From assembly GCF_009914755.1 (NCBI RefSeq), contig NC_060925.1: DNA of 64,000 nucleotides; one strand, 5' to 3'. Numbering within the stretch: position 1 is the first letter of the stretch; each line of letters starts with the position of its first letter. This document shows positions 16,153 through 53,378 of the stretch, piece after piece. Made by a program: the position numbers and the translations under genes. This DNA is from the human T2T-CHM13v2.0 reference genome, Homo sapiens. The notes under the pieces are model-generated. The model saw nothing but the letters and a program-made list of their open reading frames with translations. It had not been told where the DNA came from and searched no databases.

Positions 16153-16388
16153 CAGTCATCCCTCAGTATTAGTGGGGTATTGCATTCAGGAGCCCTGCAT
16201 ATACCGAAGTCTGCACATACTCAGGTCCCACAGTCAACCTTGCAGAGCTCGCATATGAAAAGTTGGCCCTCCACATATGTGGGTTTCACGTCCCACAAAT
16301 ACTATATTTTCAATCTGTATTTGGCTGAAAAAATCCACCTATAAGTGGACTCACACAGTTTAAACCAGTGTTATTCAAAGGTCAACTG
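16153..16388 (-). mobile_element. MER8-like (Tigger2-derived) DNA transposon
   Basis: about 240 bp; termini CAGTCATCCCTC...AAGGTCAACTG; TA at left end. Confidence 0.75.
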
Positions 16389-49547: not shown

Positions 49548-50440
49548 GCAGGAAAATTTCTAAGAAATAGATATTGGTGCAATAACCACAAAGCCAACCA
49601 GAGAGAGTTTTTCCATTTCCATTTTATAACTCATTTTTTTCCTTGACCTTGGAAAACTAGGGAACAGTTGGACTTAAGTAAGTAAATGTACTTTACTGTA
49701 TAAGAATACTTCACTCTGACACACAGCATCTGCAACACACAAGTCAGCTCAGACTTCAGTAACTGCTATTAGTATTTCTATCATGAACCTCACAGATCCC
49801 TGGTGACCAGGCATTGCATAAGAAGAAACTTCACAAGAGATAGAGATTCACGGGAAATATACCAGAATATGTCATAAAGAATAATCTCTTTCCAATGCAT
49901 ATGGTGGGGATAATGATATGTAAATATTTTAATTTTTTTGACAATATTTTACAATTAATTTAGAACTTATATAGTATTATTGATGTAGGTTTCAAACTCA
50001 CAATTATGACTTAAAGTATATACTAATATGATAGAAATTCAAAGTCAGATAATTCTCATCTTTATATAGGAAGTAATTATGAAAGTTCTCAATTAACATT
50101 AATATAAGACCTAGAAAGTAAGTCTAGCTTGACTGTTGAAGTATAATAGTATTTAAATCCTTTACTGAAAGAAAATCCGCCACTTACCTATGATGAGTGG
50201 TTATATACATTTTGTACCTTTTATTATATAGCCTTGTCAGTTTAGAAAATTAAGAACATTATGATGTTTTATTGGTTGAGTGGTAGCCCAAGCTACTCAA
50301 ACAAGAAAATGATGGTTTGAGTGCACTTGATTTTGGACAGATAGTATCACTGAGAACTGCTTCCTTGTTTGTGCCAGAAAATGGGCTGACGTTTGAGAAG
50401 ATGTTTAAATATGAATGATTTTTTTTTGATAAGTTATTTA

Positions 50441-52487
50441 GCGCAATTTTCCTACAAACTTTCCAGTTTAATTCGGAACTGAACAGTGGAATTCCAAAGC
50501 ACAGCTCGAGAGGAACCCAATCTGCTTCTGTTGTGGCACCAGAGGTTTGCTTTGTTGCTGAATCTGTAGTTGCTTCCTCAATGACCATTTCAAATGACTC
50601 TGTACTCCCATTTACATCTGAGCCAGAAGCCAAATCAGGTTTTCCTCTCTCATCAGAAGCATCACTGAGTTTTCTATTTGCAAGTTGGATGGAAACATTC
50701 AACATGGTGACATATCCGCAGAGATGTTGTAAGTCCACTGTTCCTTAGTATCTGCAATGCTTTATGAACACCCATATTGACACGAGTGAACTCTCCTTGT
50801 AGTTCTGTTTCATCAAATGGAAATGGGACATGGACAGTTTCTCCTATCCCATGCAGACCATGCTCCTGAATTAAAACTGCAGAATGTGTTAAAGCATCAT
50901 TCAACATCGTGAGCACATTTGAGGTAGGAACTACTCCAGGATCATGACCCCAAGATGTTATTAGCAATCGATCATAACTCTGAAATATATCTGGCAGTTT
51001 TTGAGGTCTTGTACCTTTGGACAATAAAAGGGATGGTGGTCCTTGTCCAGTGATATGATAAATGTACCGTTTAAACCAGACAGAGCTGATTTCTGGGATA
51101 GCTGGTCCAATATGCTGAAGGGTGCAGCTGCTGATGGGCCGGATTTCATTGGTGAGGGGAGCCATGGAAACAAGCAGCGTGTAGTTTTTGTTTAAAACTC
51201 TGCTGAAAGTTCCAGGGTCCAGACCAAGAAGGCTTTCACAGTATAAGAGATCCAGAGGAAAACCATAATTGGGTTGGTCTGGCTGTGCAGTTTGCACAAC
51301 TAGATCTTTGTTATGATGCAGAAACAGTATTGTGTTTCTCAGAGTAAATGCATGATCAAAATACCTCTGTGCTTCTCCTTCACCAGTGCTCTGAACTGGT
51401 GAAAGATATCCCATCATTAAGAAGGCAGTAAGACTGGAGTCAAACAGGAATGCGATGCGTTTCGTGTGTCCTGTAGACAGACTCAGGCTGCTTACACTGG
51501 CTGAGTCAGCTGGATCTTCTTGACTATTTGTATCAGTATCAGTTGCCGATGAAGCTGATTTCTCAGGCACATTTCTCAGGCAAAGTGCGTATCTTGATGT
51601 CATCTTATGTGATATATCCAGCCTGCACCACCCACTACGCCTCTATGGCAATTTCCACTGGCTTTATTGGTAGAAGATCATGGGCTGTTTTCCTTCTGAA
51701 GAATTTTTTTGATGATCTACACTGATTCATAAGATCAATATACTGGTTTCTTCCTATGCCGAGAAGCCTTAGACAGTCAGCAGCAGTAAAATTGGGCAAT
51801 GAATCATAACTTTTCTCACTGTTCATAATATTCTCCATAATCCCAGTATAATATGAAAATGGTGTTATGCTCAAGCCCTTCACCATAATATCCGATAGAT
51901 GGTAAGGGTACAGCATGAGATGATCTTGGCTGTACTTTAGCACTTCCTCATAGTATCTGCATTCATCTTTCTTGACATGTTTAAGTTATTTCTGTATCGT
52001 AACTGATTGCAGATACTGTACAGGACAACCTGCTTTTCATATTCTCTGTGAATTTCAAAGACGACTGGGATTTTCTTCCTCCTCTACCACCCTGAACAGC
52101 AAGACCAATACATCCTGTATTTCCTCCTCTTCAGCCTACTTGTGAAGACAAGGATGAAGACCTCCATGATGAGCCATCTCCACTTAATGACTGTCTCACA
52201 TTGGCCGGCAACTTGTTCCAGGTATAGTTGTGCCGGATGTGGAACTCCACATCTATGTTCATGATGCGGCGGCCAGGGCCGGCGGCGGGGGCCACGACCG
52301 CGACCCACACTAGGCCTCCCGCCTGCCCGCCCGCAGCCCGTCAGCGGAGCGCTGCGGGAGGCCCGGCGCCTCGCAATGCAGAAGGCCCAGGCTGCCTCTT
52401 GGCCTGGGCTCCCTACAGTTGAGTGTGGCCCAGGCCAACCGAACACTAGAGCAGCAGCGATGGGAGGCTGGGTCGCCTGAGCAGCTC
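50441..52487 (-). pseudogene. FAM91A1 processed pseudogene (3'-truncated, internal deletion, stops and frameshifts)
   Basis: ATG at 52262 gives MNIDVEFHIRHNYTWNKLPANVRQ; intronless FAM91A1 peptides in ORFs 51635-51943, 50674-51603 and 50259-50738; premature TAG 51635-51637; GC-rich 5'UTR 52263-52487. Confidence 0.93.
52064..52190 (+). mobile_element. Tigger2a-like DNA transposon fragment embedded in the retrocopy (exonised)
   Basis: GGATTTTCTTCC..CTCT.CCACCCTGA.CAGCAAGACCAA...TCAGCCTACT..GTGAAGAC..GGATGAAGACCT..ATGATGA.CCA..TCCACTTAATGA matches recalled Tigger2 consensus. Confidence 0.75.
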
Positions 52488-52747
52488 GGAAGGCCCTTTT
52501 TAACTTTAGACGTTCTGTTTGTTGAAGAGATACATAGGTTATCAACTTAGGCCAGGTTCAAAAGGCCCTTCAATCATATGGAAGTGAAACGTAACCTCCT
52601 CCTACAAGGAAAAGGATTGACTCGCCCATTCAACCAGGATACTTAGTCTTACTAAAAACTTAGAAAGAAGAATCCCCCAAGAATCAATTACAACCAAAAT
52701 GGAAAGGGCCCCTATCAGGCATTATTAAGCACCCCCACTGCTGTTAA

Positions 52748-53378
<631 letters not shown>

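What the first reader, a model, noticed from the sequence alone, without database searches (positions are those of the whole stretch)
52064..52190. Retrocopy preserves a FAM91A1 isoform with an exonised Tigger2 poison exon
A 127-nt insert lies exactly between codon Q24 (...GTGAGACAG, the inferred end of exon 1) and the SLGNSQ-encoding sequence. It has no TIRs or TA duplication, matches an internal piece of Tigger2a in antisense, and has an in-frame TGA 20 codons in (52131-52133). In the recalled consensus its ends abut ...TTTACTAT and ATAAGT, each one change from an AG acceptor and a GTAAGT donor; the homologous AAAATCCACCTATAAGTGG is visible in the MER8 near 16330. The simplest explanation is a spliced cassette exon from FAM91A1 intron 1. 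The retrocopy would then have been dead on arrival, recording an NMD-type isoform. The same segment, read in the opposite direction, forms most of a candidate lncRNA exon (52061-52221).
Basis: partly seen in the sequence, partly recalled or inferred. Interest (0 to 1): 0.7.

Follow-up and report, generated by a model that had tools for sequence, protein, structure and literature searches.

The report
Retrocopy preserves transposon-derived FAM91A1 cassette exon
A dead, intron-free copy of the human gene FAM91A1 carries 127 extra bases that are a spliced-in piece of an old transposon from the parent gene's first intron, so it records an old non-productive splice form of that gene; this is a tidy example of a known kind, not a new mechanism.

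Summary
The observation and the main interpretation both hold. Window 52064-52190 (minus strand) is a 127-nt insert lying exactly between FAM91A1 exon 1 and exon 2 in the processed pseudogene LOC647481.

- **Source.** Its best match outside the chr1 paralogues lies in FAM91A1 intron 1 on chr8, in the sense orientation. It is 86% identical, against at most 81% for the other 35 repeat copies scored.
- **Splice sites.** The chr8 segment is bounded by ...ttttctAG| and |GTAAGT. None of 25 other family copies has the AG, and 3 of 25 have the GT.
- **Shared origin.** Fifteen substitutions are shared by the chr8 copy and all four chr1 retrocopies against the family majority.
- **Host element.** On chr8 the segment is internal to a 471-bp element with terminal inverted repeats.
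- **Dead on arrival.** The in-frame TGA is present in the parent and in all four copies.
- **A second isoform feature.** The same ancestral mRNA also skipped an 87-nt in-frame exon.
- **lncRNA exon.** Annotated LINC01138 exon 3 (52013-52221, AG/GT) contains the whole segment in antisense.

Three things are not shown: present-day inclusion of the exon, its sensitivity to NMD, and whether it is already annotated. The family name Tigger2a and the "antisense" orientation could not be tested, because no repeat library is available here. This is a new member of a known kind (processed pseudogenes as fossils of splice variants) and of modest interest.

The parts
52064..52190 (-). 127-nt cassette exon derived from a DNA-transposon fossil in FAM91A1 intron 1, fixed in the retrocopy between exon 1 and exon 2
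   Evidence: It is 86% identical (BLAST) to C8:124905138-124905276, with 7 substitutions in 127 aligned sites. In the parent the boundaries are AG| and |GTAAGT.
52131..52133 (-). In-frame TGA, the 20th codon of the cassette. The homologous TGA is codon 21 of the cassette in the parent and in the three other chr1 copies.
52191..52487 (-). FAM91A1 exon 1 equivalent: 5' UTR plus codons 1-24, with the ATG at 52261-52259
   Evidence: 89.6% identity to C8:124900719-124901015. The parental donor GTACGG follows.
52488..52501 (-). Candidate 5' target-site duplication of the retrocopy (AAAAAGGGCCTTCC)
   Evidence: A similar string follows the A-run at the 3' end of the full-length paralogue C1:142.84 Mb. 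The two are not identical, so this is only a candidate.
50443..52063 (-). FAM91A1 exon 2 onward with introns removed. It carries a window-specific internal deletion and is truncated at 50443.
   Evidence: 15 parental exon blocks at 93-100% identity. Pfam FAM91_N and FAM91_C match.
51396..51397 (-). Exon-exon junction that skips an 87-nt in-frame parental exon (C8:124919908-124919994). All four chr1 copies share it.
52013..52221 (+). Annotated LINC01138 exon 3. It is antisense to the retrocopy and covers 51 nt of exon 2, the whole cassette and 31 nt of exon 1.
   Evidence: Hub annotation. An AG lies before 52013 and GTATAG after 52221.

Best explanation
The 127 nt are a cassette exon that the spliceosome included between exons 1 and 2 of a FAM91A1 transcript. 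That mRNA was then reverse-transcribed and inserted on chr1 as a processed pseudogene.

The exon arose inside a roughly 470-bp non-autonomous DNA-transposon fossil in FAM91A1 intron 1. That element has terminal inverted repeats, and related copies have TA flanks. In the chr8 copy, point changes relative to the family majority created an AG acceptor, lengthened the pyrimidine run before it, and created a GTAAGT donor.

The exon is 139 nt in today's parent and 127-130 nt in the retrocopies. It shifts the frame and carries a TGA 21 codons in, so the mRNA could encode only a 44-residue peptide. The retrocopy was therefore non-coding from the start. The same mRNA also skipped an 87-nt in-frame exon.

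The ancestral retrocopy was later copied by segmental duplication into four chr1 loci. In this window, part of it, including the whole cassette, is now read in antisense as exon 3 of LINC01138.

Shown here: the origin in intron 1, the exact AG/GT boundaries, the ancestry shared by the four copies, the stop codon and the processed structure.

Inferred: that the isoform was an NMD substrate (most likely low-level non-productive splicing, not a regulated switch), and an age of very roughly 20-40 million years.
For: 1. Source locus. An own-genome search with the 127 nt gave, after the window itself and three chr1 paralogues at 91-92%, C8:124905138-124905276 on the + strand at 86% over query positions 1-127. 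The remaining 35 scored copies were at most 81% identical.
2. Position in the parent. Exon 1 maps to C8:124900719-124901015 and exon 2 to C8:124906324/5-124906407. The segment therefore lies in intron 1, in the right order and orientation.
3. Splice sites. The parental flanks read ...aatattttctAG|TCATTAAGTGG and ...AAATCCCAGT|GTAAGTgg.
4. Specificity of the sites. In an alignment of 25 other family copies, 0 of 25 have AG at the acceptor position (15 have AT) and 3 of 25 have GT at the donor position (19 have AT).
5. Shared derived changes. Over 125 comparable sites, 15 substitutions are shared by the chr8 copy and all four retrocopies against the family majority.
6. Direction of transfer. On chr8 family homology continues on both sides of the segment, which occupies positions 285-423 of the 471-bp element. 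The transfer therefore ran from chr8 to the retrocopy.
7. All four chr1 copies have the same two junctions.
8. Processed structure. There are 15 intron-free parental exon blocks in the window copy and more in the paralogues. The full-length paralogue ends about 20 nt after the AATAAA-type signal with an A-run, and there is a candidate target-site duplication.
9. Stop codon. In the parent, TGA is codon 45 counted from the ATG and lies 76 nt before the next exon junction.
10. A second isoform feature. An 87-nt exon is skipped exactly at exon borders in all four copies.
Against: - No transcript data could be consulted, so present-day inclusion of the exon is not shown.
- The chr8 annotation could not be seen. 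RefSeq's pseudogene alignment treats the segment as a gap, which suggests that the reference mRNA used for it lacks the exon.
- The acceptor has only a six-base pyrimidine run, so inclusion may be rare.
- The stop lies 133-135 nt from the ATG. From recalled knowledge, stops close to the start codon can escape NMD through re-initiation. However, four out-of-frame ATGs precede the first in-frame ATG.
- The first base of exon 2 is C in all four copies but A in the parent. This needs one extra substitution.
- The parental lineage shows 2 changes against 5-7 on the pseudogene lineages over 125 sites. These counts are too few to show constraint.
- Survival of the AG and GT over this time span is expected by chance.
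Confidence: 0.94

Rival explanations
1. The insert entered the retrocopy after retroposition at the DNA level. It would be either a separate insertion of a fragment of the same transposon family, or a patch repair or gene-conversion event that copied part of chr8 intron 1.
For: The segment is repeat-derived and the family has many copies (934 first-look candidates).
Against: - There is no terminal repeat or TA flank at its ends in the retrocopy. It is an internal piece, positions 285-423 of 471.
- It shares 15 derived substitutions specifically with the chr8 intronic copy.
- Both ends fall exactly on AG| and |GT in the source, and the insertion point is exactly the exon 1/exon 2 junction. A DNA-level event has no reason to respect three splice boundaries.
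Confidence: 0.02
2. During retroposition, reverse transcriptase switched template from the spliced mRNA to unspliced FAM91A1 pre-mRNA and back, picking up an intronic piece.
For: Template switching by LINE-1 reverse transcriptase is known to produce chimeric retrocopies (recalled, not tested here).
Against: Two switches would have to land exactly on an AG| and a |GTAAGT, and resume exactly at the start of exon 2. No microhomology beyond the splice junctions is needed to explain the joins.
Confidence: 0.02
3. The origin is the same (a spliced cassette exon captured by retroposition), but the exon is a selectively maintained, regulated poison exon that tunes FAM91A1 dosage, not splicing noise.
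For: - The AG and GTAAGT are still intact in the present-day gene.
- The exon was already spliced when the retrocopy formed.
- The parental lineage shows 2 changes against 5-7 on the pseudogene lineages over 125 sites.
Against: - The counts are far too small to show constraint.
- Since the split the parent has gained a 9-nt GAG-repeat expansion inside the exon.
- The pyrimidine tract is short.
- No paper links FAM91A1 to a poison or cryptic exon or to Tigger. Searches covered the main texts. One search covered the one supplementary file held for a paper on conserved cryptic poison exons and found nothing.
Confidence: 0.15

Closest known systems
Processed pseudogenes as 'genomic fossils' of splice variants (Shemesh, Novik, Edelheit and Sorek, PNAS 2006). 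I saw this paper only as an entry in the reference lists of PMC5470649 and PMC7290577. It is not held, so its content is recalled.
   Same: A retrocopy keeps the exon composition of the mRNA it came from, including alternative exons and exon skips.
   Different: Here the recorded isoform combines a transposon-derived, frame-breaking cassette exon with an in-frame exon skip. The fossil was then multiplied by segmental duplication and partly re-used in antisense as a lncRNA exon.
Exonisation of transposable elements. Alu exons are the classic case. For a DNA transposon, Table 2 of PMC7951965 lists a Tigger2a-derived aberrant splice site in CFTR (passage seen).
   Same: Near-consensus splice sites inside an intronic repeat become usable after one or two point changes. 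Here these are T>G giving the AG and A>G giving the GT, relative to the majority of 25 copies.
   Different: The host is a DNA-transposon fossil with terminal inverted repeats and TA flanks, not an Alu. The evidence for splicing is a retrocopy, not RNA data.
Poison exons coupled to nonsense-mediated decay (for example SCN1A 20N; PMC11981616, search listing and abstract only)
   Same: A cassette exon with an in-frame stop lies more than 50-55 nt upstream of a downstream exon junction. Here the distance is 76 nt, with many more junctions beyond.
   Different: Neither regulation, conservation nor NMD sensitivity has been shown. The stop is close to the start codon.
Transcribed retrocopies that contribute exons to lncRNAs or host genes in reverse orientation (PMC2584115, passages seen)
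   Same: Part of a retrocopy supplies an exon on the opposite strand, using new splice sites. Here that is LINC01138 exon 3, AG at 52011-52012 and GT at 52222-52223.
   Different: Sixty-one per cent of that exon (127 of 209 nt) is the transposon-derived cassette, so the same repeat fragment serves as an exon in both orientations at two loci.

Membership tests
Processed pseudogene (LINE-1-type retrocopy) of FAM91A1 | Parental exons joined without introns, exactly at exon borders | tested here: met
   the window copy has 15 consecutive parental exon blocks after the cassette, and the paralogues have more. Pfam FAM91_N (E 1.3e-56) and FAM91_C (E 9.9e-107) match.
Processed pseudogene (LINE-1-type retrocopy) of FAM91A1 | Poly(A) tract at the parental polyadenylation site | tested here: met
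   the full-length paralogue C1:142.84 Mb stops about 20 nt after the AATAAA-type signal and is followed by a run of seven A. The window copy itself is truncated at 50443 and has no 3' end.
Processed pseudogene (LINE-1-type retrocopy) of FAM91A1 | Target-site duplication | tested here: inconclusive
   AAAAAGGGCCTTCC lies upstream of the 5' end, and a similar but interrupted string follows the A-run. The two are not identical.
Spliced cassette exon of the parent gene | Source sequence lies in the intron between the two flanking exons, in the sense orientation | tested here: met
   C8:124905138-124905276 lies between the end of exon 1 (124901015) and the start of exon 2 (124906324), all on the + strand.
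Spliced cassette exon of the parent gene | AG directly upstream and GT directly downstream of the retained segment | tested here: met
   ttttctAG| and |GTAAGT. Among other family copies, 0 of 25 have the AG and 3 of 25 have the GT.
Spliced cassette exon of the parent gene | Junction reads or annotated transcripts in present-day RNA | not testable with these tools
Poison exon / NMD-coupled isoform | In-frame premature stop more than 50-55 nt upstream of a downstream exon junction | tested here: met
   TGA is codon 45 and lies 76 nt before the cassette/exon 2 junction.
Poison exon / NMD-coupled isoform | Transcript stabilised when NMD is blocked, or regulated or conserved inclusion | not testable with these tools
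   This needs UPF1/SMG knock-down RNA-seq and other primate genomes.
Tigger2a (= MER28, Mariner/Tc1 superfamily per the Repbase table in PMC5753468, passage seen) | Terminal inverted repeats with TA target-site flanks and a short non-autonomous length | tested here: met
   on 26 loci. The right terminus motif was found in 16, followed by TA in 13 of those 16. Both termini were found in 12, and 5 of those 12 measure 426-461 bp. The chr8 element is 471 bp with degraded flanks.
Tigger2a (= MER28, Mariner/Tc1 superfamily per the Repbase table in PMC5753468, passage seen) | Match to the Repbase/Dfam consensus, and orientation relative to it ('antisense') | not testable with these tools
No repeat library is available. 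The copies fetched carry no transposase (homology upstream of the alignment, which itself begins up to 150 nt before the cassette, runs at most 381 nt further).

The most novel reading that the evidence does not exclude
The transposon-derived exon in FAM91A1 intron 1 is a still-used, selectively maintained poison exon that sets the dosage of FAM91A1. FAM91A1 is an endosome-to-Golgi trafficking factor that PMC10636324 (abstract) proposes as a gene associated with pontocerebellar hypoplasia. The retrocopy would then show that this regulation is tens of millions of years old. A bolder version follows from LINC01138 exon 3 being the contiguous antisense of exon 1 + cassette + exon 2: that lncRNA could pair specifically with the cassette-containing FAM91A1 isoform.
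Probability: 0.12. Interest if true: 0.55.

Novelty: new member of a known kind. Interest (0 to 1): 0.33.

Why it matters
- **A minimum age for one exonisation event.** The splice sites inside this transposon fossil were already in use when the retrocopy formed. Divergence puts that at very roughly 20-40 million years ago (inference). The sites are still intact today.
- **A candidate non-productive exon.** It points to a concrete, testable exon in a trafficking gene that the abstract of PMC10636324 links to pontocerebellar hypoplasia.
- **A gap in the annotation explained.** The gap in RefSeq's alignment of pseudogene LOC647481 is real parental mRNA sequence, not an insertion.
- **One fragment, two exons.** The same repeat fragment serves as an exon in both orientations: sense in FAM91A1, and antisense in LINC01138 exon 3.

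The principle is not new. Processed pseudogenes are already known to record splice variants.

Tried and rejected
- **Independent transposon insertion** was rejected. The segment is an internal fragment without termini and shares 15 derived sites with the chr8 copy.
- **Transfer from the retrocopy to chr8** was rejected. Family homology runs through both borders of the segment on chr8.
- **Orientation relative to a transposase** could not be determined. Homology upstream of the alignment, which itself begins up to 150 nt before the cassette, extends at most 381 nt further in the 25 fetched copies and the parent. All are therefore short non-autonomous elements, and no Pfam scan was run on them.
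- **The chr11 FAM91A1-like copy** (C11:73924262-73925237, about 70% identity) was checked for a canonical exon 1/exon 2 junction. It is 5'-truncated and starts at the exon that begins at C8:124921857, so it is uninformative.
- **Other retrocopies with exon 1:** exon 1 has no further copies in the genome beyond chr8 and the four chr1 loci. No other retrocopy can serve as a canonical control.
- **Literature searches** found nothing relevant:
  - 'FAM91A1' + 'Tigger': 2 incidental papers.
  - 'FAM91A2P': 0 papers.
  - FAM91A1 with poison exon, cryptic exon, NMD or exonization: none of the 15 listed papers contains FAM91A1.
  - The one supplementary file held for PMC11632617: 0 occurrences of FAM91A1.
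  - Shemesh et al. 2006 is not held.
- **Constraint test** on the parental exon: counts of 2 against 5-7 changes are too small to interpret.

Full report
**1. What is in the window**

On the minus strand the FAM91A1 retrocopy (RefSeq pseudogene LOC647481) starts at 52487. Its ATG is at 52261-52259. It reads through codon Q24 (...GTGAGACAG, ending at 52191), then 127 nt (52190 to 52064), and then sequence homologous to exon 2 from 52063.

The frame from the ATG ends at a TGA at 52133-52131, the 20th codon of the insert. Translations of the downstream parts match Pfam FAM91_N (E 1.3e-56) and FAM91_C (E 9.9e-107).

**2. Where the 127 nt come from**

I searched the window's own assembly with the 127 nt (934 first-look candidates, 40 scored). 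The results were:
- the window itself;
- three chr1 paralogues at 91-92% (C1:120.99, 142.84 and 148.80 Mb);
- C8:124905138-124905276 (+) at 86% over the whole query;
- 35 further repeat copies at no more than 81%.

Exon 1 of the retrocopy maps to C8:124900719-124901015 (90%). The following exons map to C8:124906324/5-124906407, 124907391-124907542 and onward. The chr8 match therefore lies inside FAM91A1 intron 1, in the sense orientation.

The parental sequence reads ...aaaatcataatattttctAG|TCATTAAGTGG...GAAAATCCCAGT|GTAAGTggacc. The retained segment begins immediately after an AG and ends immediately before a GTAAGT. In the retrocopy it sits exactly at the exon 1/exon 2 junction.

Exon 1 of the parent ends ...GTGAGACAG|gtacgg, and exon 2 begins after ...ctcctag|.

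**3. The segment is an internal piece of a transposon fossil, and the splice sites are specific to the chr8 copy**

On chr8, homology to 25 other family copies continues about 150 nt or more upstream of the segment and about 50 nt downstream.

I searched 26 loci (the 25 copies plus the parent) for the terminal motif and its inverse:
- The right terminus was found in 16 loci.
- TA followed it in 13 of those 16.
- Both termini were found in 12.
- Five of those 12 elements are 426-461 bp long.

The chr8 element is 471 bp (L005 1217-1687) and the cassette occupies its positions 285-423. This fits a short non-autonomous Tc1/mariner-type element. A Repbase overview lists MER28 (Tigger2a) and MER8 under Mariner/Tc1 (PMC5753468, passage seen). 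No repeat library was available, so the family name and the 'antisense' orientation remain recalled, not tested.

In the alignment of 25 copies the majority reads ...TTTACTAT|TCATTAAGTGG and ...CCAcAT|ATAAGTGG:
- 0 of 25 copies have AG at the acceptor position (15 have AT).
- 3 of 25 have GT at the donor position (19 have AT).

The chr8 copy also has T instead of A in the pyrimidine run, and lacks 13 purine-rich bases just upstream of the acceptor.

The side remark about 16330 also holds. The 19-mer is there. It belongs to a related element that shares only the terminal 57 nt with the chr8 element, at 75% identity.

**4. Direction and ancestry**

Over 125 comparable sites, 15 substitutions are shared by the chr8 copy and all four chr1 retrocopies against the family majority. 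After their split the changes are distributed as follows:

| Lineage | Changes |
|---|---|
| Parental lineage | 2 |
| Retrocopy stem | 2 |
| Window copy | 3 |
| Stem of the other three copies | 5 |

All four chr1 copies have identical junctions: CAG|TCATTAAG... and ...CCCAG(T/C)|CGTCTT. All carry the TGA. The cassette and its stop were therefore in the ancestral retrocopy, which could never have encoded FAM91A1.

One discrepancy remains. The first base of exon 2 is C in all four copies and A in the parent, which needs one substitution on the stem.

Substitution divergence of the cassette is 5.5% between parent and window copy (7 of 127). It is 6.9-8.5% between parent and the other three copies, 6.3-7.9% between the window copy and the other three, and 0.8-2.3% among those three. 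From the block lengths and identities I computed about 96.7% identity between the coding exons of the window copy and the parent. With primate neutral rates (recalled), this suggests retroposition very roughly 20-40 million years ago. An early duplication then gave the window copy, and recent duplications gave the other three. This dating is an inference from few sites.

**5. It is a genuine processed copy, and the source mRNA had a second unusual feature**

The paralogue at C1:142.84 Mb carries the full mRNA. Homology to chr8 runs through the 3' UTR (2,944 nt at 94%) and stops about 20 nt after the AATAAA-type signal, followed by a run of seven A. A candidate target-site duplication, AAAAAGGGCCTTCC, lies in the window at 52488-52501. 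It has an interrupted counterpart after the A-run.

A Pfam FAM91_C search of the genome showed a chr8 exon matching profile positions 24-63 that is missing from all four chr1 copies. It is an 87-nt exon, C8:124919908-124919994, flanked by AG and GT and encoding 29 residues. The retrocopies join the neighbouring exons exactly. In the window this junction is 51397|51396. The captured mRNA was thus a doubly non-canonical isoform.

**6. Consequence for the parental transcript**

With the cassette, which is 139 nt in today's gene, the reading frame ends at TGA, codon 45. This is 133-135 nt from the ATG and 76 nt before the next exon junction. Four out-of-frame ATGs come before the first in-frame ATG.

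By the 50-55-nt rule this is an NMD substrate. However, stops close to the start codon can escape NMD (recalled), and nothing here measures RNA. The acceptor has only a six-base pyrimidine run. My reading is that this was low-level non-productive splicing caught by chance. A regulated poison exon is possible (about 0.12-0.15) but unsupported. The 2-versus-5-to-7 substitution contrast is not significant, and the four splice-site bases would be expected to survive this long by chance.

**7. The opposite strand**

Annotated LINC01138 exon 3 (52013-52221, + strand) is preceded by AG and followed by GTATAG. It contains the entire cassette in antisense, plus 51 nt of exon 2 and 31 nt of exon 1. Its 5' end (52061) is not the annotated one, although an AG does precede 52061.

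**8. What is known**

The principle that processed pseudogenes preserve splice variants was published by Shemesh et al. in 2006. I saw that paper only in reference lists, and it is not held. Retrocopy exons used in reverse orientation are described in PMC2584115 (passages seen). A Tigger2a-derived aberrant splice site in CFTR is listed in Table 2 of PMC7951965.

I found no paper connecting FAM91A1 with Tigger elements or with poison or cryptic exons. The one supplementary file held for PMC11632617 does not mention the gene. 'FAM91A2P' gave no papers. I could not see the annotation of the chr8 locus, so the exon may already be in GENCODE or RefSeq.

**9. Verdict**

It is a clean, well-documented example of a known kind and of modest interest.

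Noticed in passing
window 50100-50442 (minus strand): The retrocopy is cut off at 50443 in mid-exon. The next roughly 330 nt are 95% identical to C5:51508066 onward, whereas the three other chr1 copies continue with the downstream FAM91A1 exons. This looks like a rearrangement or segmental-duplication junction specific to this copy.
   Followed up: partly
window 51556-51590 (minus strand): This is a window-specific internal deletion of about 459 nt (six parental exons) relative to the other chr1 copies. At the junction the string CCTGAGAAAT occurs twice in tandem, which looks like a short templated filler.
   Followed up: partly
window 51396-51397; C8:124919908-124919994: All four chr1 copies lack an 87-nt in-frame FAM91A1 exon, removed exactly at exon borders. 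I do not know whether this skip is an annotated isoform.
   Followed up: yes
G000:C11:73924262-73925237 (L056): This is a second, older FAM91A1-like copy, about 70% identical and with stops. It is 5'-truncated and starts at the exon that begins at C8:124921857.
   Followed up: partly
L047, L048, L049 (C1:120.99, 148.80, 142.84 Mb): In the three other chr1 copies the start codon is GTG instead of ATG, and only about 40 unaligned nt stand in place of the 62-nt block C8:124909507-124909568, which the window copy keeps. The three are 0.8-2.3% apart from each other in the cassette, so they come from recent duplications.
   Followed up: partly
window 16232-16388: A short element with inverted ends (CAGTCAACC ... 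GGTCAACTG) carries the ATAAGT version of the donor region. It shares only the terminal 57 nt with the chr8 element.
   Followed up: partly
literature (listing): The main functional paper on LINC01138 (Nat Commun 2018, PMC5910401) is marked RETRACTED, with a retraction note dated 2026 (PMC13490483). Functional claims for this lncRNA should be cited with care.
   Followed up: no
window 52782-52903: The annotated LINC01138 exon 4 is followed by GC, not GT (gcacgt). This is either a GC-AG intron or an imprecise model.
   Followed up: no
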